DNA of 61,990 nucleotides from a virus: UHGV virus genome UHGV-0106586; one strand, given 5' to 3'. Below, piece by piece: positions 31,503 through 61,990 of this stretch (positions within the stretch are counted from its first letter, which is position 1; each line of letters opens with the position of its first letter). The notes under the pieces are model-generated. The model searched no databases. It worked only from the letters and a program-made list of their open reading frames with translations, and was not told the DNA's origin. Both the position numbers and the translations under genes were made by a program.

Positions 31503-34202
31503 ATGGAAAACGTAGATTTTAAAAACTTACATTTAGTTGGTGATACAGAAACTGATGGTTTACTCCTTGAGTTTACTAAAGTGCACGTAATGGCTTTCGC
31601 AGACTATAAATCTGACGATGAAGAGCCACCTGTATGGGTCTTTACAGATGAACCTATCCTCGGTCACAAGTATACCAAGTACATTAAGGGTGGTTTACGT
31701 GAAGGTGTTGAATTTGCGTTAAAGGCAAAACGTCTTTGCATCCATAACGGTCTCGGTTATGACTGGTGGGTTTTCAATCACATTGCACCCGATTTGTGGA
31801 ACTTTGATAATCCAAAGTGTAAGCCGTGGAGTAATTTCTTTCAGGATTCTCTTATCCAGTCTCGTGTTCAGTGGATGGATAGACCAACTCCAAAGGGCTA
31901 TAAAGGTGCTCATGGCTTGGCAGCATGGGGTGCTCGTGTGGGTGTCCGTAAACCAGAGATTGAACATTGGGGTGTGTGGAATGCAGAAATCTTCACTCGT
32001 GTTGTGGAAGATATCCGTATTAACGCCAAAACTAAACGTGCATTGGATAATGAATATCTGAAGCTTAAGAAGTGTGGTATAGACACTTATGAAACCTACA
32101 TGCGAGCTAAAGAGACATCTTTCTGGATGAGTCAACAGGCTATCAATGGTTGGAAAGCTGATAAAGAGCTTATGGAGTTCCATGTAAAGGAACTTGACAA
32201 GTTGACTAATGAGCTTGCTTCAGAAGTTGAACCACATCTTCCTCCAACTATTAAAACCAAAGGTAAAGTCACTGGAGAAGAATTTGCAAAAGCTTGGAAT
32301 GAGTATGTTGAAGCGTTTGGTCATGCAGATGGTCTGAAGAGAATTACCAAGTACCCTAAGACAAAGTATCGTCAACAGGTACGCAACGGTGAGATGCAGA
32401 CATATGAAATCAAGCCATTTGGTAAGCCAACTACAAAGATTTTTAACATTGAAAAGCGGAATTGCTATACACCAACCAACTCTGTAACTGGCGAAGAGTA
32501 CAAGGAAGGCTTTGTAGCAATGAAGGATGCTCGTGCAATTTGCAATGAGTTGAATGCAAAGATTGGTAAGAAGTGCAAAGACTGGAAGCCAGTAAAAACA
32601 GTTAAAACTGTGAAGTACTATAACAGCCATGTTGTTAACCACTTTAAGCTTGAGTCAAGTCGCTACACAGGTTTGATTGATGCACCATATACACCAATTG
32701 AGTTCGAAGTTTCTCGTATGACTCAGGTAGCAGTTGTTAAAGACTACTTGAAATCAGTTGGTTGGATTCCAGATGACTGGAACTATAAGAAAGACTCTGA
32801 TGGTCGTCCTGTTAAGGTTTGTCGCTTCAAAGACAACAAAAAGATGATTACAAAACATCCTAAGTGGGATGAGATGGTGGAACGGTGTGGTTTGAGTTAT
32901 GTTGAACATGAAGGTGTCCAGTACATTGAACATAACTGGTCTGTGAAGAAGTACACAGATTTGCTTGAGCCTTGCTTAATCCGTACTTCACCAAAACTTA
33001 CTGAATCATCTTATGATACGATTGAAGGTGAGCTTGGACAGAAGATTGCTAAGTACTATACTTTGATGCACCGACGCAGAACTATTGAGAACTCAAAGGA
33101 TGATGAAAAAGGTTGGTTGAACCAGATTCGTCCAGATGGTCGCCTTAGTGCTGGTGCAATGGTATTTGGTACTTCAACTGGACGTATGACACAATATGGT
33201 ATTGTAAACGTACCGTCTGGTGCTGCTGTCTATGGAGCACCTATGCGGGAAGTTTGGACTTGTGAAGAAGGTACAGATATCATCTCTGTAGACCAAAACT
33301 CAGCACAGCTAGTTCTTCTTTGTAACTTTATGGGTGATGAAGAGTTCACTAAAGCGGTAACTGAAGGTAAAGAGTCAGTAGAATTTACCAAGCAAGAGGA
33401 TGGGAGATACTATTGCAAGCATCTTGATAAGTACCTCAATCCAGAAACTGATAAGTATCTTCGTTATGATGCTGAGAATGACCTCTACGAAGTCTACACA
33501 GGTACTGATGCACATACACTGAATAGTATTTACTTTGGTCTGAACAAGGAAGAAGATATTGTTCGTTGTAGGGAAACACAGGATGAGGAACTTCTCCACG
33601 AGATTACAAAAGGTCGTAAGAAGGCCAAGAATGGCATCTACGCCCTGTTATTTGGAGCCGGAGACGAGAAGTTTGCAAAAACTATCAAGGCATCATCTAC
33701 GGAAGAAGGTGCATTGACTAAACAAACTTACTTTGTGCGTCTACCTAAGATTAAAAAGCTGCTTGACAGGTTAGAGGAAGACTTCAAAGCAACTAAGAAG
33801 GCACTTGAAGAGGTTTTTGGAAAAACTTCTGCAATTGCCAAAGGTGGTTATATCAAAGTCGCTGGAGCGTGGTTATGGTGTAAATCTCCACATAAGTTAT
33901 TGAATTTCACACTCATGGGTAGTGAGGCGCAGGTACAGAATGAGGGGATTAACTTGGCTAATAGAGAGTTAACAGAGCGAAAACTTACAGTTCTAAATGG
34001 TAGGAAACCAGCTATTGGTGCTAGATGGGTCTGTAGTTACCACGACGAAGTTTCTTTAGAGGTTCCAACAAAAGCTGTACCAGATGTTAAGGAGATTATT
34101 GATAGAATGTATGGTCAAGCATCAAAAAATCTTGGATTAAAGAGTAAGACGCTTGTTACAGGCACTGGTAAGGTAGGTAAGACATGGTACGCCGTACACT
34201 AA
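31503..34202 (+). CDS. DNA polymerase, family A (T7 gp5-like) with 3'-5' exonuclease domain
   Basis: N-terminal LVGDTETDG exo I motif; C-terminus ...YAVH as in Pol I family; ATG 31503 preferred (GAGGGAG RBS) over track start 31473. Confidence 0.85.
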   Translation: MENVDFKNLHLVGDTETDGLLLEFTKVHVMAFADYKSDDEEPPVWVFTDEPILGHKYTKYIKGGLREGVEFALKAKRLCIHNGLGYDWWVFNHIAPDLWNFDNPKCKPWSNFFQDSLIQSRVQWMDRPTPKGYKGAHGLAAWGARVGVRKPEIEHWGVWNAEIFTRVVEDIRINAKTKRALDNEYLKLKKCGIDTYETYMRAKETSFWMSQQAINGWKADKELMEFHVKELDKLTNELASEVEPHLPPTIKTKGKVTGEEFAKAWNEYVEAFGHADGLKRITKYPKTKYRQQVRNGEMQTYEIKPFGKPTTKIFNIEKRNCYTPTNSVTGEEYKEGFVAMKDARAICNELNAKIGKKCKDWKPVKTVKTVKYYNSHVVNHFKLESSRYTGLIDAPYTPIEFEVSRMTQVAVVKDYLKSVGWIPDDWNYKKDSDGRPVKVCRFKDNKKMITKHPKWDEMVERCGLSYVEHEGVQYIEHNWSVKKYTDLLEPCLIRTSPKLTESSYDTIEGELGQKIAKYYTLMHRRRTIENSKDDEKGWLNQIRPDGRLSAGAMVFGTSTGRMTQYGIVNVPSGAAVYGAPMREVWTCEEGTDIISVDQNSAQLVLLCNFMGDEEFTKAVTEGKESVEFTKQEDGRYYCKHLDKYLNPETDKYLRYDAENDLYEVYTGTDAHTLNSIYFGLNKEEDIVRCRETQDEELLHEITKGRKKAKNGIYALLFGAGDEKFAKTIKASSTEEGALTKQTYFVRLPKIKKLLDRLEEDFKATKKALEEVFGKTSAIAKGGYIKVAGAWLWCKSPHKLLNFTLMGSEAQVQNEGINLANRELTERKLTVLNGRKPAIGARWVCSYHDEVSLEVPTKAVPDVKEIIDRMYGQASKNLGLKSKTLVTGTGKVGKTWYAVH

Positions 34203-45623: not shown

Positions 45624-51445
<5,822 letters not shown>

Positions 51446-51486
51446 TCATTTTTAACCAAGCCTTTGATATATAAGTATTTTCTCTG

Positions 51487-51556
51487 TTAAGCGTGAGCTA
51501 CGTAAAAAATAATTTTTGGTGGGTATATCTGTTCAGAAGATTTCACGTAGCATTCG
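51487..51556 (-). promoter_or_regulatory. conserved ~70-bp element upstream of gene 50615..51406 (copy 1 of 2)
   Basis: Shares blocks ttaagcgtg, tacgtaaa, gtgggtat, atttcacgtagca with 53631-53700. Confidence 0.4.
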
Positions 51557-51563
51557 ACTATTA

Positions 51564-53612
51564 TCAATCATCTTCTGGGAATGATGAACTTAATAGCGTA
51601 GCTTCTGCGTATTGGTCGTAGATATTACTGCTAAAGGTCATAAAGCTGGTTTCATCTGGTTTAATGGCAACTTCACCACCAAGTGAAACTTTCACAGGCT
51701 CCTGAATACGTTTGCTCAAAGCACTAATTTCATCTCTCAGGCTTTGGATATCCGTATTCGTTAATGCCGCATCTTGTCTCATGGTGATTAATTCTGGATG
51801 CTGGAAGTTAGCAAGATTCATAGCTGCACTATTAAACCAACCTTTCACATCGTCCATTGTAAATACTGGCTTAAGTCCAGACTCTTTAGCCAGCTCTGGT
51901 AATTTAGCTTGTGCTTCCATTCGTTCAGGTGTAGAGGCTAATCTTTCATAACCTGCATAGATAGCACTACCAGCTAATAGCATATTCCCAAGATTAAACC
52001 TTGATGGTTTCCCGTTCTTTCTATTCACGTTATCCGCTGTAGTATCAGCGACCTGACCTAATCTTGTGATAGCAGTCATAAGCCCGTAAATACTTCTGGT
52101 TACACCAACAACTTTATTTACAGCAATAACACCAGCCAAGACTTTTAAACTATTAATCAAGCCAGAACCTAAAGCATCAACAACTTTCTTTTGTTCATCG
52201 GTTAAACCACGATAAGCCAATGTCACCTCATCAAAGAACGCCCTTACCCTGTAACTAATATCAGTCAGGTTATCGACACCGTGTGACATAGAAGTCATGA
52301 GATTACCAAGACTTTCACCTAATGTTTTACCACTCCCACCAAGACTATTTAAAAGCGTTGTTAAGCTTCTTGTGAAATCTTGAAGACCATTTTCAGAACC
52401 TCTGAAGATATCCGTTAGTGAGTTGTTCCAAGTATTCTTTAAGTTCCCTAACATCGTCTGCGTAGAGTCCTGAATAGCTTTCCAGCCACCTCTGGAATTA
52501 ATCTGTGAACCAAGTTCTTTAGCAAACTTAGGGAGTGCATCAGAGGCTTTAACATCACCATTTTTCATCTTATCGAAAAGCTGTTTTTCAGTCAGACCTA
52601 AAGCCTTTGCAAATGCCTGAGTAGCACCCGGTAAAGCTTCAGATAGTTGCCCCTTAAGCTCTTCAGCCATCACCTGACCCTTAGAAGCCATCTGCGATAC
52701 TGCGGTTAATGCTCTTTGAATCTGCTCATCTGAACGACCCATTAAACGGGCATATCCAGTTAAGTTTTTAAATAATTCCTCTGAGCCTTCAAGACCCATC
52801 GTATTTTTTGCAGATGCACCAAATGAAGCAAACTGTGCTTGTGTTTCGGTTGTGTCCATACCAGTAATTTGAGTTAAATCTTGAATGAACTTTTTGACCT
52901 GTGTACTTTGGTCACCGAATACGAAATCAATACTTCTTTCCGATGATGCACGTTGAAGGCCAACTTCCATAATCTTCTGATAAGCGGATAGTACAGCCTG
53001 AAAGCTGATAAATGCACCTGCTGTTTTAACTGCTGCTGAACTCAAACTATCAAGACTATTAGCTGCTCTGTCACCGTTAATGCTGGTGGATGTATGACCT
53101 TTAGCTTTAGCAATTGCTTCTCTGACTGAAGCATTTAACTGAGCCAGCTTCTCATTGAATTTTGAATTATCCATCTGACCAGCTTTAGCAGATAGCCCGT
53201 AAAACTGAGATTTGATGTATTTCTGCAAAACAGGGTCAAAGCCCTTTAACTTGCTCATATTCGCTGAGTAAGCTGCTGTGATTGCTCTGTTTCCGCTAAT
53301 TCGTGGCTGTCTTGGTTGTTTTGGAGGATTAATAGCGTCATTAACCTGACTTGTGAAACGGAAAGCTTTTGTGCTTCTTGCTCTCTGTTCAATCTTGTCA
53401 AAAGCCTTATTAAACTTCCTTTCAAGTTGCCCTAAAGAACTTGTCAAATTACTATCAAGCTGTTTTGTATTAATCCTGAAACCTTTATTTAGGTTCTTTT
53501 CAATTCTTTGTGCTGACTGCAAAGCTGCCTTTTCAACTCTTTGCAAGCCTTTAACAACGTTTTCACTGAAGCCTAATTCAACGATAAAACTATCAACTGT
53601 AAATTTGCTCAT
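51564..53612 (-). CDS. tail tape measure protein
   Basis: 682 aa, alpha-helical low-complexity composition, TMP-like core QVMAEELKGQLSEALPGA, position upstream of baseplate genes. Confidence 0.7.
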   Translation of the reverse strand: MSKFTVDSFIVELGFSENVVKGLQRVEKAALQSAQRIEKNLNKGFRINTKQLDSNLTSSLGQLERKFNKAFDKIEQRARSTKAFRFTSQVNDAINPPKQPRQPRISGNRAITAAYSANMSKLKGFDPVLQKYIKSQFYGLSAKAGQMDNSKFNEKLAQLNASVREAIAKAKGHTSTSINGDRAANSLDSLSSAAVKTAGAFISFQAVLSAYQKIMEVGLQRASSERSIDFVFGDQSTQVKKFIQDLTQITGMDTTETQAQFASFGASAKNTMGLEGSEELFKNLTGYARLMGRSDEQIQRALTAVSQMASKGQVMAEELKGQLSEALPGATQAFAKALGLTEKQLFDKMKNGDVKASDALPKFAKELGSQINSRGGWKAIQDSTQTMLGNLKNTWNNSLTDIFRGSENGLQDFTRSLTTLLNSLGGSGKTLGESLGNLMTSMSHGVDNLTDISYRVRAFFDEVTLAYRGLTDEQKKVVDALGSGLINSLKVLAGVIAVNKVVGVTRSIYGLMTAITRLGQVADTTADNVNRKNGKPSRFNLGNMLLAGSAIYAGYERLASTPERMEAQAKLPELAKESGLKPVFTMDDVKGWFNSAAMNLANFQHPELITMRQDAALTNTDIQSLRDEISALSKRIQEPVKVSLGGEVAIKPDETSFMTFSSNIYDQYAEATLLSSSFPEDD

Positions 53613-53630
53613 TGTTCATATTTCACCTCT

Positions 53631-53700
53631 TTAAGCGTGTTGTACGTAAATTCTATTTTTCAGTGTGGGTATTAGCTTTACAGATTTCACGTAGCACACA
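53631..53700 (-). promoter_or_regulatory. conserved ~70-bp element upstream of the tape measure gene (copy 2 of 2)
   Basis: Same conserved blocks as 51487-51556 in the same order and spacing. Confidence 0.4.
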
Positions 53701-53770
53701 TACAAAAAAGGGAGAAACTACCGATGTCACTCGATAATCTCTCCCGTAGATTTTTACCCAACCAATCTTT

Positions 53771-53974
53771 TTACCCAACCAGATAATAATTGCCATCTTC
53801 ACCAACAATCTGACAATCACTTGGTAATTTATCAAGACACCATTTAGCGATTCTTCTGATTCTGTTATTTTGCTTAGAGGTGGATGATTTGATTCGTTTT
53901 GGTTTGTTGGGTTGTTCTTTCAGTCGTTCACTAATTGCCTTGATGAGTTCATAGCGTTCTGTTAAATCAATCAT
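53771..53974 (-). CDS. hypothetical protein (67 aa), N-terminus paralogous to the next ORF
   Basis: MIDLTERYELIK vs MNDLTERDKRIK. Confidence 0.3.
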   Translation of the reverse strand: MIDLTERYELIKAISERLKEQPNKPKRIKSSTSKQNNRIRRIAKWCLDKLPSDCQIVGEDGNYYLVG

Positions 53975-53999
53975 TCACCACCTCCTTTTTAATTCGATT

Positions 54000-54308
54000 T
54001 TAATCTAAGTAGTGTATACACTCGACACCGCGTTCATTCTTTTGAATTTCATAACGTAGTGAAAGACCAGTTTGATAATACACAGTATCAAGCTTATTTA
54101 TCTTATCCTTGAGTTCGATAAGAAGTCGCGTTAAATCATCCCGACCATCACACTTTAGTTCGGCAAGAGGCTTTTCGTCCATACGACCAATAAGATATTC
54201 AGTGACCTCCTGAATATCACCAAGAGTCGTTTTAATTTCATTGAACCTATCTTCAAAAGGTTCCATCACCCCTTTAATTCTTTTATCACGTTCTGTTAAA
54301 TCATTCAT
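54000..54308 (-). CDS. hypothetical protein (102 aa)
   Basis: ORF in track. Confidence 0.4.
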   Translation of the reverse strand: MNDLTERDKRIKGVMEPFEDRFNEIKTTLGDIQEVTEYLIGRMDEKPLAELKCDGRDDLTRLLIELKDKINKLDTVYYQTGLSLRYEIQKNERGVECIHYLD

Positions 54309-54316
54309 TAATCACC

Positions 54317-55027
54317 TCAAATAGCCTTTGCATATTTCTGAGAAATCTTCATTAACTGCTCAATATCGGCTTGCATAGCAATCTTCTTCTGTGATTCATA
54401 TTCACTAACAAGTTCTTTCATAGCCTGAAGCTCTCTTGAGAGATACAACTTAACATTTTCAAGTTGCTTGTTACGTGATGCCAAGATGTTCTGTCTAGCA
54501 AGTTCACAGAGTTCTTCATCGCTCTTATTAGTCATATAAATAAATTGACCAGCACCCCTTGAAGCTTTAACCATCTTCACAATTCGATATCCGTCAGGAA
54601 GATTATTAATCACGTCTGGGATATTCTCAGGAAAAGTACCAAAACCATCATTATCTTCGTATTGGTAATAGACAAATGGTTTCTGTGACAATTCATCCTG
54701 AATCTCAAATTCTGACGGCTCAATAGCTGATTGCATCAGGGTAACTTTGCTGTAAGCGTCATCAAGTTTAATACGCTGTGCTTTTAACTGTGGGTAATAT
54801 TCACGCTCAAGATTAAATAGTGCTTCACTTTTGCAGATATCTGGCATTTCTTGAGGCTCAGGAGACACAAAGGTAATTTCCTTTGGTGACATCTTTAACG
54901 ATTGCTCAAGCTTAATTCTTTCATCGTGTTCTTTACGCTGAATAGTGATAGCTGGATGTTCAGTCTGTGGCGACCAGTCACCGAAGCTATCAACCTTTCT
55001 GCCATTAATGTAAATATCATTTGTCAT
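54317..55027 (-). CDS. hypothetical protein (236 aa)
   Basis: ORF with ATG and GAGGAAAT RBS. Confidence 0.45.
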   Translation of the reverse strand: MTNDIYINGRKVDSFGDWSPQTEHPAITIQRKEHDERIKLEQSLKMSPKEITFVSPEPQEMPDICKSEALFNLEREYYPQLKAQRIKLDDAYSKVTLMQSAIEPSEFEIQDELSQKPFVYYQYEDNDGFGTFPENIPDVINNLPDGYRIVKMVKASRGAGQFIYMTNKSDEELCELARQNILASRNKQLENVKLYLSRELQAMKELVSEYESQKKIAMQADIEQLMKISQKYAKAI

Positions 55028-55553
55028 TATAATTTCCTCTAAGTGTGATTATTTCTTAATAGAGCACCTTCAACGCCAATACACTTAGAAGATGACTTAA
55101 CGATTTATTAAAGATGCTCTATAAAGAAAAGCCCTAAACATAGGTTCATCCTCATCTGTGAAGGGCTTTGGAGGTTTGCTTTAACGTTAACGAAGTTTCA
55201 GGAAAAAGTTCTGTTTGAAAACTCTTAAAGAAACGCCCTAACTCATGATTAGGGCAAAGCTGTAAAGGGTTCAATGAATGAATGATTAAGCACTTTTTGA
55301 GATAGCCTATCTAGTGTGGGCTAAATAGGCCATGACGAAAAGCATTGCACCTTTCCAACTCAGAATATAGTTATCATCGATGTAGAGACGATTAATATTT
55401 TAATTCAAGGAGAATTGCTCTCCCTATATATACAATTATGTCATGCTCAAGGTTATTTGTCAACAGCTTTTTAACAGATTGGTAACATTTATACTTTAAT
55501 AGATGCACCTGCAATCATACCAATCAATACAAAACAGATAATCACCAATTCCA

Positions 55554-55877
55554 TTAATGCACCACCTTCGAATCCGTCACCAAAATATTGTCAGCGTACA
55601 AAATTGCTATAGCTGCCTTGAGATATCTTTCAGGGCTAATACTGTATTTGTTCGTTTGCTCGATAACCAATCTTTTCATGTTGCTGTCTATAATTGGTAG
55701 CATCATTCGAGGCTCGTTAAACTCCACCGACTGAATAAAGTCTTCAATTACTTCTGAGTTATCAGCCATTAGCCTTAACAGCCTGTCAAAGTCAATGCTA
55801 ACACCTACATCAGTGAAAGCCTGAATCATCATAGCGGTGTCGTTATCAACGAAAATCTGTAATGGGTAATTGTTCAT
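55554..55877 (-). CDS. hypothetical protein (107 aa from ATG 55877)
   Basis: ATG with AAAGGAGA RBS. Confidence 0.45.
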   Translation of the reverse strand: MNNYPLQIFVDNDTAMMIQAFTDVGVSIDFDRLLRLMADNSEVIEDFIQSVEFNEPRMMLPIIDSNMKRLVIEQTNKYSISPERYLKAAIAILYADNILVTDSKVVH

Positions 55878-56032
55878 TTTTAAAATCTCCTTTTTACCAG
55901 ACCTCCTCAATCGCTCTGTAACGAGCTAAACAGTCTTTTTCAGGGGTAGCCTGTACAGTGGTATTACCCACCCTAAAATAAGATAGTTTTTTGCGTTAGA
56001 ATGCGATTGAGAGCGCCTGAGAAGCTATTTTT

Positions 56033-56320
56033 CTAATTTCTCTTAAAGTCTCGGACTTGCATAAGATTTTTTGGTCTGGTATCGGCTCTGTTACCATTTC
56101 GATGGATAATTTGCTTGTTGGATTGATAGCCATGATAAAGGAACCAGACAACATATTTCACGTAGAAAGTATATCGGCCTATATTAAATGTTTTGTTGCC
56201 GTAGTCGTCGGTATTTATCGTGACTGACTCTCCATCAGACCAGCACAGGGAATCACTGGATTCATCATAGATAAGGTGTTCTGTAAAATATCGTCTAACA
56301 TCTTCATGCCAAGGTTTCAT
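56033..56320 (-). CDS. truncated/degenerate HNH-like protein (N-terminal HNH region only, no AP2 domain)
   Basis: LIYDESSDSLCW...FYVKYVVWFLYHGYQ...IIHRNGNRADTRPKNL parallels the N-terminal halves of the intact HNH-AP2 proteins but with substituted catalytic positions. Confidence 0.4.
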   Translation of the reverse strand: MKPWHEDVRRYFTEHLIYDESSDSLCWSDGESVTINTDDYGNKTFNIGRYTFYVKYVVWFLYHGYQSNKQIIHRNGNRADTRPKNLMQVRDFKRN

Positions 56321-56532
56321 AAAACCTCCTCACCCCAATAACCTAATTCAATCTTGTGACGCTCAAACCATTCCGGTTTAACTGCTGTTTTCAGTACTTC
56401 ATTTGGGCCAATGGCTTTAATGAAAATATCTTTTGAGTTATGGATGTCACCGAATCCGTTTCCCTTAATCAGGAGGTCGGAGATGTGGCGAATCATTTTA
56501 TCCGTGTGGTATTCAAAGGTAACGCATAGCAT
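56317..56532 (-). CDS. hypothetical protein (71 aa)
   Basis: ORF in track. Confidence 0.35.
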   Translation of the reverse strand: MLCVTFEYHTDKMIRHISDLLIKGNGFGDIHNSKDIFIKAIGPNEVLKTAVKPEWFERHKIELGYWGEEVL

Positions 56533-56810
56533 TAAACCTCCATCGCTAACTTGTGAATCTTAAGACTCAATAGACGGGCAATATCAATCTTAAAGCCGTT
56601 AAGTGCCTTCAAAGTATCTAAAGCGTCCTGAGTAATTCGGATGTGCTTACGACCTTTAGAGACTGGATATTTAAGTAAATCCGACTCAGTGACCTCTTTA
56701 GCAATTGCAAGCTGCATTACAGTTTGATGAGGCAAGTTAGTAGCTCGTTTAATTCTGGTAAGCTCGTTAAAAGCTTCCTCTGAAATACGGGTTAATGTGT
56801 GTTTATTCAT
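56532..56810 (-). CDS. hypothetical protein (92 aa)
   Basis: ORF in track. Confidence 0.4.
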   Translation of the reverse strand: MNKHTLTRISEEAFNELTRIKRATNLPHQTVMQLAIAKEVTESDLLKYPVSKGRKHIRITQDALDTLKALNGFKIDIARLLSLKIHKLAMEV

Positions 56811-57368
56811 TTAAAATTCCTCTGTAACTAAATACGGGTCAAACTCGAAATCTGGTTGCTCGTTTTCCATTGGCTCAATATTCCCAACGGCAATATGATG
56901 TTCAACAATACCAATTAGCTTTGCACACATTACAGCAAGCAAAGCGCAATATTTATCGCTTGGTAATTCATGGCTAAGTCTGGTTGCTTGTCTTTGAAGA
57001 TAATTTGTCACGCTGGCTGCGTTAATTTCGTCAAGATTCTTTAGAAGATAAAATAGTTTTTTGTTGTATTTCGGGTGGCCTTCACTTCTACAGAATCCAA
57101 TGAAAATATCATCAAGCTTACTTGGTAGTTGCTCGTAAGAATCAAAGTTAGCCAGATAATTTTTAATAGTGTTCTGGGTGCTCTTTCTGGTTGGCATAAA
57201 TCTGTCTCGTGGCGTAATGCTACGAATTACTTCGTCAATGCCTTTGCGTTCTTTCTTGGTGAGCTTGGGTAGTTCGTAGCTGGTTGGGTTGTTTGTGTAA
57301 GCGTAGGAGTTGTGCTTGTTACGTTGTCTCGATGCCTGAAGCATCGCTCTAAATTCTGCGTCTCTCAT
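56811..57368 (-). CDS. hypothetical protein (185 aa)
   Basis: ORF in track; first gene of a minus-strand operon. Confidence 0.45.
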   Translation of the reverse strand: MRDAEFRAMLQASRQRNKHNSYAYTNNPTSYELPKLTKKERKGIDEVIRSITPRDRFMPTRKSTQNTIKNYLANFDSYEQLPSKLDDIFIGFCRSEGHPKYNKKLFYLLKNLDEINAASVTNYLQRQATRLSHELPSDKYCALLAVMCAKLIGIVEHHIAVGNIEPMENEQPDFEFDPYLVTEEF

Positions 57369-57419
57369 TCATGTTCCGACCCTCATAAGATGTTATTATT
57401 CTGTTAACTTATATATACA

Positions 57420-57448
57420 ATACTAGCATTTTCAAAGACTAATGTCAA
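57420..57448 (-). promoter_or_regulatory. sigma70-like promoter for minus-strand operon 57368..55554 (-35 TTGACA, 17-bp spacer, -10 TAGTAT)
   Basis: Read from reverse complement of 57420-57448. Confidence 0.35.
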
Positions 57449-57473
57449 GTATTTTTTAACATTTTATTAACAT

Positions 57474-57486
57474 CTGTGGTATAATG
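57474..57486 (+). promoter_or_regulatory. extended -10 promoter-like element (TGGTATAAT), plus strand
   Basis: TGnTATAAT seen at 57478-57486; no good -35. Confidence 0.35.
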
Positions 57487-57612
57487 GTTCTATGGGGAGA
57501 GTAAAATATAAAGGCGTGGCTATGAGGTTTATTCGATAGGGGTTGGTACAAGCCCAACTAACCGAATCAACTATGTATGTCACATGGTATTGCATTGCAC
57601 ACAGGAAATTTA

Positions 57613-57789
57613 ATGGTAAATCTCCCTCCTGAACTGGGGTCACCTGATGTATGGGCTGGTGGAGGTATCGGGCTGATTGCAGGTCTGTTACTCCGCTACG
57701 TCCTCGTCAGAGTGCTTGTTGTCTTTAAACTGTTCGGTCGTACATGGACGCTTGACCTTAAGGATAATGACCACACGGACCCCCGTTAA
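57613..57789 (+). CDS. small single-pass membrane protein candidate (58 aa), more GC-rich than surroundings
   Basis: AGGAAA RBS then ATG; GGGIGLIAGLLLRYVLVRVLVVF hydrophobic helix. Confidence 0.3.
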   Translation: MVNLPPELGSPDVWAGGGIGLIAGLLLRYVLVRVLVVFKLFGRTWTLDLKDNDHTDPR

Positions 57790-58840
57790 ACCCCCTTCAA
57801 AACCCCTATACCATCTCGTACAGGGGTATCTTTAGCATTTTGTGCTATCTATTAAAAAATAGCTTGACAGAACCAGAAAGCTGTATCTATCAAGTATTCA
57901 CCTCTCTGACAGTGATTTCTAAAAGTTCTTATTTTTCAATAAGTTGTAATTAGCCATATATAGTAGCTGTTCAGCACCTTCACAGATGACTTCAAGCCTT
58001 CTTAGCTATCCACTAAGCGGGAGAAGAGCGATAACCCCAGAGAGGGAAGCTCCCTTCTAATTGGTATTGTTATGAGGATGCTTCATCCGAATCATCTACC
58101 AATCCCTAAACCGACTTTCTTAACCAGCCCTTTACGTTATTCGTTCACAGTGTTGATAAGTGGTTTTGCCCTCTGTTTCTGTTATCATCGGGCTTACCTT
58201 ATCAGGGCTTTGAAATGCCCTGTAACTCCCCTCTTAACGGGAGAGAAAGAACATAGTGACCCCAAGCGAAGCGCCCCTCTAAAAAGATTTTTTAGCTACT
58301 TTGTTTAAAAGCACATCAAACGATACATTTTATTGATTTAGGTCAAAGACAAAAGCATTGACAAAATGGTAAGATTGTTCACATGACCTTACTTAACAGA
58401 TTCTTAAGAGCTTTGAAACAGCCTGTCTAACAAGGTCACTACCTCTGGTCTTATCGTTCCCTCTCTTCTTGGTAGTTCTGTTAAGTATTTTTCAGTTTTA
58501 TTCTTAAGATAATTGTTAAGATAGAACCTACCTTCGGTTTCATGGTTCTCTTCCTCCCGTTAAACAATTCTTCCTAACTATCTACATAATCACTACCAAG
58601 AATCTTACAAGGTAATATCCAGACCTCTTATAGTTGACCTGATACAGAAACATTACAGACATGCTCTCTAGGTTCTGTGTAGTTCCCTTGTTGGGAATAG
58701 ATGCTCCTACAATAAGAGCATCATTAATCTATATACTCCTCTTCCGAGAACTTAATGTTTTTTTAATGTATATCAATCATTATCCAAAATATGATATGAA
58801 GTTTCTTGGTAGTATTACATCAACAAGTTAATTGAAATAA

Positions 58841-59284
58841 GGAATATTATTTAGAAATGGTGTAAAAATCGAGGGTTCACTTGTAAATCCTAAACCAAGA
58901 CAATACCTGGCTTTTGGTTGTCGGATTAATGGTAAGTTCAGAATACTTAAGGTGCATCAGGTTATTTTCTATCTATATCATGGTAAACAAGCTAAACTAT
59001 AGATTGACCATATAGATGGTGACCCGCTAAATAATGCTATTAGCAATCTTCGCGAGGTTACCAAAGAGCAGAATCAGGCAAACATGATACCCAGAAAGAA
59101 AACAAAATCAGGTTACAAGGGGGTACACCCAAGAGTGGATAACAAGGGGTTCTGGGCTACAATACGCTGTAATGGAAAATCTCATTATCTGGGTCAGTTT
59201 AATACAGCAGAAGAAGCTGCAAAAGCCTATGATGCTGCATCACTGGAATTGCATGGTGAATATGGACACAGGAATTTTAGCTGA
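58841..59284 (+). pseudogene. HNH-AP2 homing endonuclease pseudogene: no start codon for the N-terminal part, in-frame TAG at 59000-59002, AP2-domain remnant retained as ORF 59084..59284
   Basis: Hand translation ...VHQVIFYLYHGKQAKL*IDHIDGDPLNNAISNLRE...SGYKGVHPRVDNKGFWATIRCNGKSHYLGQFNTAEEAAKAY parallels the intact copy at 34184..34687. Confidence 0.6.
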
Positions 59285-60237
59285 TAGTTAATAAAGACCT
59301 GACATAAACTTGTCGATAGGTCTGATTAAAGTTTATACAGTGATTTTTCATCTTCTAATTTTTTTATAAAAATCGTAGTAGCCTCTCTACATTCCCCTTC
59401 ACCGATAATCTTCAAAAATATCTACACAGTTGATTCGGTAGAATCTACCTCATGATTGATGGCTGTTAAGTACCCCAGATTCACGATATAGCACCCCCTT
59501 TGCAAAAGCAGTTAAAATATCTATAACCAATTATTGACTTTCTTTATAGCATCTGTTAACTCCACATCAAGAAACCTTTATCACACTTCAAAGCATCTAT
59601 CAAGAAGATTTCACCTATCAATAGATGTAACATTTTATAGTTCTGTGAAGTCCTATCCAGTTTTCTCTGTAACAGACACAAACTTCTGTGACCTTATGTA
59701 TCAATGACTTACAAGACATGCTCTCAAGGTGCTGTATAGCCTCTTATCTTCAAATACACAAAACCCTTATAAATCAGTACTGATACGTATACAGTTCGTT
59801 TTTAACATAATAGCTGTTTTACGCACTAATCGTGTTCTACATGAAATCTGTATAGATATTAAGGTGTCTGTAAGTGATTTTTTAAGAGGAGCTACGAAGA
59901 ACTATAACCATCACCTCCTAACTTTCACATGGGAAACTGTTAAGCAGCTTGATAGTCACTTTGAGGGAATATTGATAGTGACCAACTGCATAGATAGCGT
60001 TATATAGTCCTGTATATAGCACTTTTCTAGGAGTCGAGAGAGGGACGACTAACACGATACAGTTTACCCTGAAAAGAGACTTCACAGATTCTTTATATAT
60101 TTCAATAAGTTATGCTAAAAAGGGACTATATCAATACTGCATAGAATCTGTGTAAAACTGCTTAGATAGTGCATAAATACACCGTTGAATTGCATAATCA
60201 TTCACTGATATTGTCCTGTTATTAACAGGTATGTTCT

Positions 60238-60316
60238 CATAGTTGATTCGGATGTTCTAGGAATCATCCTCATAGTTGATTCGGATGTTCTAGGAATCAT
60301 CCTCATAGTTGATTTA
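60238..60316. repeat. 33-bp tandem direct repeat (catagttgattcggatgttctaggaatcatcct), 2.4 copies, with internal dyad symmetry; ~85 bp upstream of the recombinase-like gene
   Basis: Copies at 60238-60270, 60271-60303 and a partial copy at 60304-60316; related sequence at 59429-59464. Confidence 0.7.
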
Positions 60317-60399
60317 GACCTTGATGATTTTTATTAGACACGTTTAAATACACTACCTAAAGCGATACAATCTAGGTATCAGTTTTGAGGTGGTAAACA

Positions 60400-61659
60400 A
60401 TGAAACGTGTCATTTCATACATTCGTTTCTCATCAGAGAAGCAAGCTAAAGGCGACTCACTCCGCAGACAATCTAAGATGGTCACTGATTGGCTTAAGGC
60501 TCATCCTGAGTACTACCTTGACCAAGATTTATCTTTTCGTGATTTAGGTGTGAGTGGATTCACTGGTAAGCACTTGAAAGGTGGCTTAGGTGACTTCTTA
60601 ACCGCTATCGAGAAAGGGCTTGTTAAAGCTGGTATCAAAGTTTCTAAACGTTGTCCTGCATGGCTTAAGCTTAATGATGACCGTAAAAGCTTCTCTGTGA
60701 TACCTGAGAAAGTGGAGACTGTGAAGAGGTGCTTTCAGCTACGGTTAGAGGGTAAGTCTATCTGGGAGATTGTCAGAACTCTTAATGCTGAAGGTCACCA
60801 GACGCTTAACCAGTACAAAGCAGGTAAGTTTGGTCAAACATCTGTTCAAGACCTTTTGAAGAATCGCTCTGTAATTGGTTACTTCACACCTAAAGGCTGT
60901 GAGGAGATTGCAGGTTATTACCCGTCTGTAATTGATGAAACAACATTCTACAAAGTTCAACAACTATCACATTCTCGTTACGGTAGAAAACCTGCTTCAG
61001 ATAAACCATTGAGTGTGAATCTCTTTAAAGGTGTTATCCGTTGTTCTGAATGTGGTCATGCTTTGATTATCACAGGCTTTAGCGATACAAGAAACGGGAT
61101 TTATCGTTGTCCTCTTCGTAATGAAAACCGTTGTAGTGCTAAAGGACTTTCACGTAAGCAAACCGATGGTACATTGCTTGCCCTGCTATCTCGTCTTGAC
61201 CGATTTGATAGCGATATGACGAATACCATAGACACACTGAAGCTACACCGTGAACACATCTCAAGCAATATTGAAAAGCTGGTACAGCTATCACTTGAAA
61301 TTGAAGACTTGTCCGCTATTACCAGCAAACTAAGACAACTAAAGAATGAGCTATCACAAGTTGATGCGGATATCGAGAAGGAGACACAACGCCTTAAATC
61401 TATTGATGTGGGTTGTTTGTCTGATTGTGACTTGACTACAAAGGCGGGAAGGATTGAAGCACAACTGATAATCAAAAGTGCTGTTAAAGAGGTCGTTTTA
61501 AATACTGCTAAACGTCGCTGTAAAGTAACTTTTCACAACGGTAAAGCAATCACCTTACCAATAACAGAAAACCCCTCAGACAACGTTACAGAGGCTATAC
61601 AGTCGCTTTCTGAAGTCACTGAGAGGGGTTTAATAGATGTTGATGAGGTTATCATATAG
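60400..61659 (+). CDS. serine-recombinase-like protein (resolvase-type N-terminal motifs, recombinase domain, zinc ribbon) with apparently truncated catalytic domain
   Basis: YIRFSSEKQ and DLGVSG motifs; recombinase-domain-like middle; CSECGH...YRCPLRNENRC zinc ribbon; no DRLxR-type motif found by eye. Confidence 0.6.
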   Translation: MKRVISYIRFSSEKQAKGDSLRRQSKMVTDWLKAHPEYYLDQDLSFRDLGVSGFTGKHLKGGLGDFLTAIEKGLVKAGIKVSKRCPAWLKLNDDRKSFSVIPEKVETVKRCFQLRLEGKSIWEIVRTLNAEGHQTLNQYKAGKFGQTSVQDLLKNRSVIGYFTPKGCEEIAGYYPSVIDETTFYKVQQLSHSRYGRKPASDKPLSVNLFKGVIRCSECGHALIITGFSDTRNGIYRCPLRNENRCSAKGLSRKQTDGTLLALLSRLDRFDSDMTNTIDTLKLHREHISSNIEKLVQLSLEIEDLSAITSKLRQLKNELSQVDADIEKETQRLKSIDVGCLSDCDLTTKAGRIEAQLIIKSAVKEVVLNTAKRRCKVTFHNGKAITLPITENPSDNVTEAIQSLSEVTERGLIDVDEVII

Positions 61660-61673
61660 TTGAGATTCTATCG

Positions 61674-61990
61674 TCAGTAGCGCTTGTTAGGATTCACAGA
61701 AAGCTTCTTCAAAGTACTACCTGTACCAGCATTATTAAGCACCTTTGAAGCTTGCTCATTAGCGGCATCTGAGAAGGTGCTTTTTCCGTTCTCAACTTTG
61801 ACACTTCTACCACAATTGATACGGGCTTGAAGTTGCTCATTAGTAAGTTCACTCGTAGAGCGATTATATAGCTCCTGACACATCAACATACCGTTACCTA
61901 AGCTTGTTGTAGTGTTCCCTGTATTCTTCTTAGAAGTAGCACCACCGTCATTTGTAGTAGAAGTCTTTCCAGTGGCTGCTGAAATATCAG
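61674..61990 (-). CDS. partial CDS (3' portion; 5' end lies beyond the window) paralogous to tail gene 50615..51406
   Basis: Open frame runs to the window edge; 61891-61990 is ~88% identical to 50850-50949 (last ~60 nt identical); C-terminus ...LSVNPNKRY vs ...[11 protein letters not shown]. Confidence 0.5.

What the first reader, a model, noticed from the sequence alone, without database searches (positions are those of the whole stretch)
60238..60316. 33-bp tandem repeats with dyad symmetry upstream of the recombinase-like gene, plus a related site 0.8 kb away
The unit catagttgattcggatgttctaggaatcatcct occurs 2.4 times. It contains inverted pentamers (gattc/gaatc and ggatg/catcc). A related sequence agttgattcggtagaatctacctcatgattgatgg lies at 59429-59464. 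This looks like iterated protein-binding sites: an operator for the downstream gene, recombination sites, or iterons.
Basis: seen in the sequence. Interest (0 to 1): 0.55.

Follow-up and report, generated by a model that had tools for sequence, protein, structure and literature searches.

The report
Variable repeat beside an integrase attP site
The 33-bp repeat is real. It is a copy-number-variable duplication of a short stem-loop motif at the edge of the attachment site (attP) of an 11-kb mobile island that inserts into the E. coli gene yecE, and this island was assembled here next to a Felix-O1-like phage and borrows that phage's genome-end sequences.

Summary
In detail: 2.4 perfect copies of a 33-bp unit lie at 60236-60314, and a significantly related site lies at 59429-59464.

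The window is a gut-metagenome contig. Positions 1-51.2 kb are a Felixounavirus. The rest is an ~11.4-kb island that sits in yecE in about 10% of complete E. coli genomes.

In the window the island's right end is joined to its left end. This makes an attP site with core TGATTTT at 60325-60331, just upstream of a large serine integrase gene that has lost 88 aa of its catalytic domain. The repeat abuts attP, and its last partial copy forms the outer part of the P arm.

Unit number varies among close relatives: 0, 1 or a replacement sequence in chromosomes, one in another excised copy, and 2 or 3 in otherwise identical metagenome copies. Multiplicity therefore looks like replication slippage rather than design.

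The unit belongs to a motif family, TGATTC-GGNN…NNCC-TCAT, in which changes in the stem are compensated. Five copies lie in the island's non-coding DNA. Another lies 12-15 bp from the terminal-repeat boundary of some Felixounaviruses, and the "related site" is homologous to that one.

Operator and iteron readings are not supported. The function of the motif remains unproven.

The parts
60236..60314 (+). 33-bp tandem array. Unit 1 is 60236-60268, unit 2 is 60269-60301, and the partial copy is 60302-60314.
   Evidence: TRF gives period 33, 2.4 copies and 100% matches. The repeat finder family D2. Relatives carry 0, 1, 2 or 3 units.
60244..60273 (+). Stem-loop module within unit 1: TGATTC-GGATG-ttctaggaat-CATCC-TCAT.
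   Evidence: Motif scan. Stem table of 10 distinct variants. The DNA fold is weak, -3.6 kcal/mol, z = -1.5.
60277..60306 (+). Stem-loop module within unit 2, identical to the module in unit 1.
60215..60229 (+). Terminator-like hairpin CCTGTTATTAACAGG immediately upstream of the array. It is conserved in the chromosomal copies.
60306..60355 (.). attP of the island. The P-arm half-site TAGTTGATTTAGAC is at 60306-60319, the core TGATTTT at 60325-60331, and the P'-arm half-site GTTTAAATACACTA at 60342-60355.
   Evidence: attL, attR and the reconstructed attB share only TGATTTT. The best dyad centre is TT at 60330-60331, with 13/22 matches. The same junction occurs in an independent 11,473-bp metagenome contig.
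60343..60371 (+). Promoter-like site TTTAAA-17-TACAAT for the integrase gene, inside the P' arm.
   Evidence: Consensus scan only.
60400..61659 (+). Large serine integrase gene with an in-frame 264-nt deletion. Residues 79-166 of the 507-aa protein are missing, including ESLDRLSR and helix E.
   Evidence: Pfam matches Resolvase only at model positions 1-63 of 145, plus Recombinase and Zn_ribbon_recom. Alignment to the chromosomal copies.
59429..59464 (+). The 'related site'. It contains the module TGATTC-GGTAG-aat-CTACC-TCAT at 59431-59453, followed by a degenerate partial repeat.
59412..59538 (+). Block homologous to the Felixounavirus sequence that spans the terminal-repeat (DTR) boundary. 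By alignment, the phage end would fall at about 59468/59469.
   Evidence: The first 45 nt are 93% identical to about 30 phage records. Identity over 116-127 nt is 72-77%. The phage DTR boundary comes from Ro111lw, pEP20 and UAB_69.
58072..58094 (-). Short module TGATTC-GGATG-aag-CATCC-TCAT, with the flanks TTGGTA…ACAATACC that also surround it inside the DTR of one phage contig.
57522..57569 (-). Long module TGATTC-GGTT-(30 nt)-AACC-TCAT.
51232..61990 (.). Body of the yecE island in permuted form: tape-measure gene, small ORFs, HNH gene, AP2-HNH remnant, non-coding region, attP, integrase and the start of a second Dit-like gene. The contig ends at 61990.
   Evidence: 99.4% identical to E. coli chromosomal islands. 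99.98-100% identical to independent metagenome contigs.
50848..51390 (-). Junction zone inside the Dit-like baseplate gene, where the phage and island sequences are both about 90-98% identical to the window.
   Evidence: Three-way identity profile. Collinearity with phage VpaE1 ends at 51382.

Best explanation
The array is a slipped-strand duplication of a single 33-bp module. That module sits at the outer edge of the P arm of the attP site of a yecE-targeting mobile island that is moved by a large serine integrase.

Shown:
- The window carries the island's right end joined to its left end (P arm, core TGATTTT, P' arm, integrase gene).
- The array ends 11 bp from the core.
- The partial third copy supplies the distal P half-site.
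- Unit number differs (0, 1, 2, 3, or a replacement sequence) among copies that are otherwise nearly identical.

Inferred:
- The duplication arose by slippage between the 13-bp direct repeats CTCATAGTTGATT, which lie 33 bp apart. Two microhomology-flanked deletions in this same island copy are the same kind of event.
- The number of units has no required function.

Shown for the motif:
- The unit belongs to a family of short modules with fixed flanks (TGATTC … TCAT) and a variable stem-loop whose base stays complementary (GGTAG/CTACC, GGATG/CATCC, GGTT/AACC, GGATAA/TTATCC).
- Five copies lie in the island's non-coding DNA.
- One copy lies 12-15 bp outside the terminal-repeat boundary of some Felixounaviruses. 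The 'related site' at 59431 is homologous to that phage copy and to the boundary itself.

Inferred with low confidence: the module is a structure-dependent cis site, read as a hairpin or cruciform, that is used in phage-type processing of DNA ends (packaging or associated replication). The island shares or copies it from Felix-O1-like phages. It is not an operator of the integrase gene and not the crossover site.
For: Context:
- Window 1-51382 is collinear with Felixounavirus VpaE1.
- Window 51389-60400 is 99.4% identical to islands in E. coli yecE, and 550 of 5426 genomes have a match.
- Window 60325-61990 matches the island's left end, beginning at the yecE junction.

att sites:
- attL, attR and attP share only TGATTTT.
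- The chromosomal P half-site TAGTGTATTTAGAC and the P' half-site (TAGTGTATTTAAAC on the other strand) lie equally far from the centre at 60330-60331 (and direct reading).
- The same attP junction occurs in an independent 11,473-bp metagenome contig that has a full-length integrase and one unit.

Copy number:
- Variant A has 0 full units, variant B has 1 (at least 37 genomes), variant D has one diverged unit plus a partial one, and variant C has a different insert (at least 141 genomes).
- The deleted-integrase lineage has 2 units (this contig and JGI 3300029816) or 3 units (ERZ920430, ERZ1303766). Outside the array the matching stretches are 100% identical to the window for JGI 3300029816 and 99.77-100% for ERZ920430 and ERZ1303766.

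Slippage signature:
- The 264-nt and roughly 80-nt deletions in this copy are flanked by 9-13-nt direct repeats.

Motif family:
- TGATTCGG occurs 5 times against 0.96 expected.
- Ten distinct variants all keep a 3-6-bp complementary stem base, with compensated changes at pairs 3 and 4.

Phage link:
- The DTR boundary GCTT|GGTAGCCC comes from Ro111lw, whose record carries the repeat at both ends, from the pEP20 record ends, and from the annotated DTR of UAB_69.
- Reported DTR lengths are 581-613 bp (PMC8303462, PMC4837284, PMC6454146).
- Homology of 59412-59538 to this boundary.
Against: - The predicted hairpins are weak (-3.6 to -4.6 kcal/mol, z -1.5 to -2), and alternative pairings exist.
- Felixounaviruses that lack the module at the boundary (Ro111lw, UAB_69) still have normal terminal repeats, so the module is not essential for phage packaging.
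- No protein that binds the module was identified. The island's small ORFs have no family matches, and both structure models were unusable.
- The repeated growth of the array (1, then 2, then 3 units) in the deleted-integrase lineage could reflect selection rather than neutral slippage.
- The unit's 5' end (TAGTTGATTCGG) resembles the integrase half-site (TAGTGTATTTAG) at 8 of 12 positions, so a link to the integrase is not excluded.
- The join between phage and island in this contig may be an assembly artefact.
Confidence: 0.55

Rival explanations
1. The units are accessory or decoy binding sites for the serine integrase. In this lineage the protein is truncated to its DNA-binding domains. 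Bound units would modulate recombination or integrase expression in the excised form.
For: - The array abuts attP, and the partial copy is part of the P arm.
- The unit's 5' end matches the distal half-site at 8 of 12 positions, by direct reading.
- The truncated protein keeps its Recombinase and zinc-ribbon domains.
- Arrays of 2-3 units are seen only in the deleted-integrase lineage.
Against: - From established knowledge: large serine integrases use simple sites of about 40-50 bp without arm-type accessory sites.
- The same module occurs 0.8-2.7 kb away in both orientations, and also in phages that have no integrase.
- At least 141 chromosomal islands with an intact integrase carry a different sequence at this position.
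Confidence: 0.12
2. The units are iterons of the island's replication origin.
For: - They are direct repeats in a 1.1-kb non-coding region, and further copies lie elsewhere in the island's non-coding DNA.
- Island DNA appears as separate ~11-kb contigs at high coverage in metagenomes.
Against: - Only 0-3 units are present and the number varies. In many islands the site is replaced.
- The copies elsewhere differ in spacer length and orientation.
- No initiator, primase or helicase was detected.
- Only a single copy occurs in phage genomes.
Confidence: 0.08
3. The units form an operator for the downstream recombinase gene.
For: In the excised form, the dyad-containing repeats lie 30-110 bp upstream of the gene's promoter-like site.
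Against: - In the integrated state they are about 11 kb from the gene, at the opposite end of the island.
- The promoter-like site lies beyond the crossover, in the P' arm.
- Copy number is variable.
Confidence: 0.06
4. The modules are selfish or neutral mini-palindromes, similar to REP or MITE elements. They insert and duplicate in non-coding DNA and have no function for the island or the phage. The array is simply the most recent duplication.
For: - Presence or absence is polymorphic at fixed sites. A 24-26-nt module between TTGGTA and ACAA is filled in the IMG/VR phage-size contig L038 and empty in the listed hits among the 253 matching phage records in the phages collection, which span only 92-115 of the query's 141 nt.
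- The boundary site is filled in about 30 phages and empty in Ro111lw and UAB_69.
- One module is nested inside another in variant C.
- A possible TA duplication is visible at one site.
Against: - No transposase or RAYT-like gene was found in the island or the phage.
- The flanks TGATTCGG and CCTCAT are strictly conserved and the stem changes are compensated, which points to selection.
- One copy is retained next to attP in most island variants.
Confidence: 0.18

Closest known systems
attP sites of large serine integrases (phiC31, Bxb1, A118/LI, and the integrase of the Vibrio PLE satellite)
   Same: - The site lies just upstream of a gene for a roughly 500-aa recombinase with Resolvase, Recombinase and zinc-ribbon domains.
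- Site, prophage junctions and host target share only a short core.
- Imperfect inverted half-sites lie about 12-24 bp from the centre.
- The target is inside a host gene.
   Different: - A variable tandem module is fused to the outer P arm.
- In this copy two half-site positions are changed and the integrase has lost its catalytic core.
Helper-derived packaging sites carried by phage satellites (P4 cos, cos-type SaPIs such as SaPIbov5, E. coli PICIs)
   Same: - It is a small integrative island that lacks capsid and terminase genes.
- It carries a stretch homologous to the genome-end region of a specific phage group.
- It is found excised and assembled together with that phage.
   Different: - The presumptive helper is a virulent myovirus with short exact terminal repeats, not a cos or pac temperate phage.
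- Only one of the two repeat boundaries is recognisably copied.
- Induction, packaging and transfer are all untested.
Hairpin-forming sequence at the T7 concatemer junction (Chung, Nardone and Hinkle 1990; recalled from memory, not checked here)
   Same: A short palindromic element lies next to the terminal-repeat boundary of a phage that must duplicate its repeat during packaging.
   Different: There is no sequence relationship. In Felixounaviruses the module is absent from many members, so it cannot be essential.
Structured repeat families with fixed ends and a variable palindromic core (integron attC sites, REP elements, PeSL cassettes of T4-type phages)
   Same: - The flanks are conserved.
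- Core length is variable (13-38 nt) and complementarity is maintained.
- Copies are dispersed in both orientations in non-coding DNA.
- Insertion and deletion are polymorphic.
   Different: - The modules are much shorter.
- No cognate tyrosine recombinase, RAYT or promoter component was found.
- The family is restricted to one island family and one phage genus.
Plasmid or phage iterons
   Same: Direct repeats of a few tens of bp lie in a non-coding region.
   Different: Too few copies, which also vary in number. The spacer length is not fixed, and there is no neighbouring initiator gene or AT-rich unwinding region.

Membership tests
attP site of a large serine integrase | Adjacent gene for a large serine recombinase (Resolvase, Recombinase and zinc-ribbon domains) | tested here: met
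   Pfam finds all three domains. Full-length 507-aa orthologues are 92-95% identical. The window's own copy lacks residues 79-166.
attP site of a large serine integrase | attL, attR, attP and attB are related by exchange of arms around a short common core | tested here: met
   The core is TGATTTT. The flanks swap exactly as expected between the E. coli junctions and the window. attB was reconstructed from the junctions; no empty yecE site was examined.
attP site of a large serine integrase | Imperfect inverted half-sites symmetric about the central dinucleotide | tested here: met
   TAGTGTATTTAGAC and GTTTAAATACACTA lie at +/-11.5 to 24.5 bp from TT 60330-60331 (sequences).
attP site of a large serine integrase | Integrase-catalysed attP x attB recombination | not testable with these tools
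   Indirect support only. Integrated copies exist in about 550 genomes, and excised-form junctions occur in 5 or more independent assemblies.
The tandem units as part of the recombination site proper | Units lie within the roughly 50-bp symmetric site and are conserved with it | tested here: not met
   Only the partial third copy overlaps the P arm. The full units lie 24-95 bp from the centre, and they are absent or replaced in many islands.
Iterons of a replication origin | Three or more regularly spaced, conserved direct repeats next to an initiator gene | tested here: not met
   0-3 units, variable in number. No initiator was found.
Operator of the downstream gene | Sites overlap or adjoin the gene's promoter in the resident (integrated) state | tested here: not met
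   In the integrated state the array and the gene are at opposite ends of the island. The promoter-like site is in the P' arm.
Phage satellite (PICI, P4 or PLE kind) | Small integrative element with its own integrase that lacks capsid and terminase genes | tested here: met
   The island is 11.4 kb. It carries an integrase, Dit-like, tape-measure, HNH and AP2-HNH genes and unknown ORFs.
Phage satellite (PICI, P4 or PLE kind) | Carries the helper's packaging signal or its own small terminase | tested here: inconclusive
   A 127-bp block is homologous to one Felixounavirus terminal-repeat boundary, and a second block matches repeat-internal sequence. The other boundary was not found, and no TerS-like protein was found.
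Phage satellite (PICI, P4 or PLE kind) | Helper-induced excision, replication and packaging | not testable with these tools
   Only circumstantial. The excised form was co-assembled with a Felixounavirus, and contigs break where the island and phage Dit genes are nearly identical.
Known RNA families | Match to an Rfam covariance model | tested here: not met
   No match at gathering thresholds over the whole window, and none at E <= 1 over 57300-60420.

The most novel reading that the evidence does not exclude
The yecE island would be an unrecognised phage satellite of virulent Felix-O1-like phages, analogous to the Vibrio PLE/ICP1 pair. It is present in E. coli, Shigella, Salmonella and relatives. 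It excises through its serine integrase and is processed by the helper's packaging machinery, using a copied terminal-repeat boundary. The TGATTC…TCAT stem-loop modules, including this tandem array beside attP, would be the cis signals for that hijacking. The island's Dit-like and tape-measure genes would then remodel or interfere with the helper's tail.
Probability: 0.25. Interest if true: 0.8.

Novelty: new member of a known kind. Interest (0 to 1): 0.45.

Why it matters
The repeat on its own is an ordinary slippage polymorphism. It marks something more useful: the exact attP/attB system of a widespread enterobacterial island, found in about 10% of complete E. coli genomes and also in Shigella and Salmonella.

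This island shares tail genes and genome-end sequences with Felix-O1-like phages, which are widely used for typing, biocontrol and therapy. If the island parasitises or interferes with these phages, it would affect the outcome of phage therapy. It would also be a second example, after PLE/ICP1, of a satellite of a virulent myovirus.

The motif family and the mapped att sites give concrete handles for testing this: PCR across attP and attB, module deletions, and sequencing of virion DNA.

Tried and rejected
Searches that found nothing:
- Exact-match scans of IMG/VR for the 29-nt unit and for the attP junction found nothing.
- A scan of one genome per species with the integrase returned only a 548-bp contaminant contig.
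- No tRNA genes and no Rfam matches were found.

Protein function:
- Pfam, PHROGs, NCBIfam, PADLOC and a PDB sequence search gave nothing for the island's small ORFs beyond HNH, AP2, Dit-like and tape-measure.
- A 'transposase' label on one annotated orthologue was not reproduced.
- AlphaFold models of the 185-aa ORF (shallow 19-sequence alignment) and the 92-aa ORF (single sequence) had pLDDT 45 and 42. They were too poor for fold search, so none was run.

Ideas considered and dropped:
- I first read the array as marking the second terminal-repeat boundary of a divergent Felixounavirus. The region turned out to be island DNA, and no homology to the phage's second boundary was found.
- A match between an AT-rich 11-bp repeat at 57451-57473 and the phage's boundary repeat is weak (E 0.05-0.15) and lies just upstream of a promoter. 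I treated it as chance.
- The first-stage idea of a single nested dyad was rejected, because the two pentamer pairs cross each other.

Literature: searches for a yecE satellite or a Felixounavirus satellite found nothing relevant.

Full report
**1. The observation**

Tandem Repeats Finder reports an array at 60236-60314 with period 33, 2.4 copies, 100% identity and score 158. It is the strongest array in the window, and the repeat finder shows two identical 33-mers plus a partial third copy.

They are interleaved (GATTC GGATG … GAATC·ATCC), so they cannot form one nested dyad.

The second site at 59429-59464 shares AGTTGATTCGG, TAG-AATC and CCTCAT with the unit. A local alignment scores 32. 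The mean for 500 dinucleotide shuffles is 18.4 +/- 2.5, and one shuffle reaches 32. TGATTCGG occurs five times in the window, all between 57.5 and 60.3 kb, against 0.96 expected.

**2. What the surrounding DNA is**

The window is an entire metagenome contig, ENA ERZ1304109 NODE_478, length 61990.

Positions 1-51382 are collinear with Felixounavirus genomes in reverse orientation. Identity to VpaE1 is 88-95% in most matched blocks (73.7% in one short block, 33648-34202). Homology to the phage stops inside the gene for a Dit-like baseplate protein.

From there to 60324 the sequence is 99.4% identical to an ~11.4-kb island inserted in the E. coli gene yecE (DUF72). Of 5426 complete genomes, 550 have a match. 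Positions 60325-61990 match the other (left) end of the same island, starting exactly at the yecE junction.

In chromosomes the order of the island is:
- the left part of yecE
- a large serine recombinase of 507 aa
- a Dit-like protein
- a tape-measure protein
- seven or so small ORFs, including an HNH endonuclease
- either an AP2-HNH endonuclease, or a Dam-type methylase plus a small invertase-like recombinase
- about 1.1 kb of non-coding DNA
- the right part of yecE

In the window the island is therefore permuted, with its right end joined to its left end.

**3. The attachment site**

The junction sequences are:
- attL: …TTAATCGGG-TGATTTT-TATTAGACACG
- attR: …TAGACCTTGA-TGATTTT-AGACAGCCGCC
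- window: …TAGACCTTGA-TGATTTT-TATTAGACACG

The window sequence has the P arm of attR and the P' arm of attL around a common 7-bp core at 60325-60331. This is the structure expected of attP.

The best dyad centre is TT at 60330-60331. In chromosomal copies the motif TAGTGTATTTAGAC in the P arm and its near-perfect inverted partner GTTTAAATACACTA in the P' arm lie at equal distances from that centre, 11.5-24.5 bp. A promoter-like TTTAAA-17-TACAAT for the integrase gene lies in the P' arm.

An independent 11,473-bp metagenome contig (ERZ1090866 NODE-760) carries the same attP junction. It has a full-length integrase and the whole island in permuted order. None of the 5426 complete E. coli genomes contains an attP junction. 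The excised form is therefore real and is not a chromosomal tandem.

**4. Where the repeat sits and how it varies**

The array lies between a conserved terminator-like hairpin (60215-60229) and the P arm. Its partial third copy (60302-60314) supplies the distal P half-site.

At the same position, other copies of the island have the following:

| Variant | Loci | Content at this position | Number of genomes |
|---|---|---|---|
| A | L034 | No full unit (GGTATGTTCTAGGAATCATCCT, then the P arm) | not counted |
| B | L030, L032, L033 | One unit | at least 37 |
| B-like | excised contig L046 | One unit | - |
| D | L043, L044 | A partial unit plus one diverged unit (GGTT…AACC in place of GGATG…CATCC) | not counted |
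| C | L031, L035 | A different sequence holding a short module in the opposite orientation | at least 141 |

The truncated integrase of the window occurs, with exactly the same protein sequence, in several other metagenome assemblies. In those, the array has two units (JGI 3300029816) or three units (ERZ920430 from a type-2-diabetes gut cohort, and ERZ1303766). Outside the array the matching stretches are 100% identical to the window for JGI 3300029816 and 99.77-100% for ERZ920430 and ERZ1303766.

The array is thus a variable-number tandem repeat. In this lineage the P half-site reads TAGTTGATTTAGAC instead of TAGTGTATTTAGAC. That gives 13-bp direct repeats (CTCATAGTTGATT) spaced 33 bp apart, an ideal substrate for slippage.

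The same island copy has a 264-nt in-frame deletion in the integrase gene. It removes residues 79-166, which include ESLDRLSR and helix E. It also has a deletion of about 80 nt that removes the start of the AP2-HNH gene. Both deletions lie between 9-13-nt direct repeats. These are events of the same mechanistic class as the duplication.

**5. The motif behind the unit**

Each unit contains TGATTC-GGATG-(10 nt)-CATCC-TCAT. Scanning every locus collected gave ten distinct versions with the same flanks and cores of 13-38 nt. In all of them the base of the core is complementary:
- GGTAG/CTACC
- GGATG/CATCC
- GGAT/ATCC
- GGATAA/TTATCC
- GGTT/AACC
- GGT/ACC

The third and fourth pairs change on both sides together.

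In the window the copies are at 57522-57569 (-), 58072-58094 (-), 59431-59453 (+), 60244-60273 (+) and 60277-60306 (+). Fixed flanks with a variable but self-complementary core suggest recognition of a folded or extruded structure rather than of a rigid duplex site. The predicted DNA hairpins are weak, however (-3.6 to -4.6 kcal/mol, z about -1.5 to -2), and alternative pairings exist. No Rfam family matches.

**6. The link to Felix-O1-like phages**

The 45 nt around 59431 are 93% identical to about 30 Felixounavirus records. Weaker homology of 72-77% extends over 59412-59538.

In the phages this sequence lies in the ~1.7-kb non-coding region between convergent transcription units.

Three records fix the position of the terminal-repeat boundary:
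- The record of Ro111lw carries the direct terminal repeat at both ends. PhageTerm reported 613 bp for it (PMC6454146).
- The record of pEP20 is opened at the same point.
- The record of UAB_69 has an annotated 618-bp DTR.

All three place one repeat boundary at …GATGTATATCTGCTT|GGTAGCCC…, which is 12-15 bp after the module. Other reported repeat lengths are 581 and 608 bp (PMC8303462, PMC4837284).

The island therefore carries a copy of one genome-end boundary of these phages. By alignment the end would fall near 59468.

A second block, 58411-58467, matches repeat-internal phage sequence. The short module at 58072-58094 has the same flanks (TTGGTA … ACAATACC) as an insertion inside the repeat of one phage-size IMG/VR contig. 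The listed hits among the 253 matching phage records in the phages collection span only 92-115 of the query's 141 nt, so they lack that insertion.

Ro111lw and UAB_69 lack the module at the boundary but still have normal repeats. The module is therefore not essential to the phage.

**7. Interpretation**

The best-supported reading is this. The array is a slippage-generated, copy-number-variable duplication of one module at the outer edge of attP. The module belongs to a structured motif family that the island shares with the genome-end region of Felixounaviruses.

A role for the module in end processing or packaging is an inference from position and homology only, and I give it low confidence.

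The operator reading fails because in the integrated state the array and the integrase gene are at opposite ends of the island. The iteron reading fails on copy number, variability and the lack of an initiator gene. An accessory role for the integrase, and a purely selfish or neutral mini-palindrome, remain possible.

**8. The phage-island join**

Between 50848 and 51390 the window is about 90-98% identical to both the phage and the island Dit genes. The contig ends inside a second, island-type Dit gene. Independent ~11-kb island contigs also start and stop in this gene.

This is what an assembler does at a near-identical repeat, so the join may be an assembly chimera. It could equally be a true recombinant. 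Either way, the island in excised form and a Felixounavirus were in the same sample.

Many chromosomal copies carry IS insertions, which shows decay in some lineages. Orthologues of an island ORF occur in E. coli, Shigella, Salmonella, E. fergusonii and E. albertii.

I found no description of this island as a satellite in the searchable literature.

Noticed in passing
window 50848-51390 and 61674-61990: The contig joins a Felixounavirus to the excised yecE island inside a Dit-like baseplate gene that both carry at about 90-98% identity. It then ends inside a second, island-type copy of that gene. This is either a real phage-island recombinant or an assembly chimera.
   Followed up: partly
window 60400-61659: The integrase has an in-frame 264-nt deletion between KAG…KAG direct repeats. 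It removes the catalytic ESLDRLSR motif and helix E but keeps the DNA-binding domains. Exactly the same truncated protein occurs in several independent gut metagenome assemblies, which points to a lineage that persists without integrating.
   Followed up: partly
window 58820-59284: The AP2-HNH homing-endonuclease gene lacks about 80 nt, including its start codon, compared with chromosomal islands. Other island variants carry a Dam-type methylase and a small invertase-like serine recombinase at this position instead.
   Followed up: partly
window 57909-57963: A second copy-number-variable repeat with a period of about 95 nt lies here. The window has one copy, ERZ920430 has two, and the JGI 3300029816 contig has three or more.
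   Followed up: no
window 51564-53612 and 50615-51427: The island carries its own tape-measure and Dit-like genes, both related to those of Felixounaviruses, but no other tail, capsid or terminase genes. That is an odd gene set for a prophage remnant.
   Followed up: partly
L001 (JLBYU28) 1-1722 and relatives: The Felixounavirus terminal non-coding region is packed with dozens of CTTAACAG/TTAACA-type repeats. It also has an 11-bp tandem repeat (GTTAAGAAAAT x2.5) ending exactly at the other terminal-repeat boundary.
   Followed up: no
L046 11430-11473: The independent excised-island contig ends in a Nextera adapter sequence. Its break falls in the island's other non-coding region, which could be either a physical DNA end or low coverage.
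   Followed up: no
window 60245-60265 and 59432-59445: The pentamers GATTC and GAATC are both GANTC sites, and some island variants encode an N6-adenine methyltransferase whose specificity is unknown. This may be coincidence.
   Followed up: no
L052-L060 (E. coli chromosomes): Many chromosomal islands are interrupted by IS2/IS3, IS21, IS1 or IS4-type insertions in the tape-measure gene, the 236-aa ORF or the non-coding regions.
   Followed up: no
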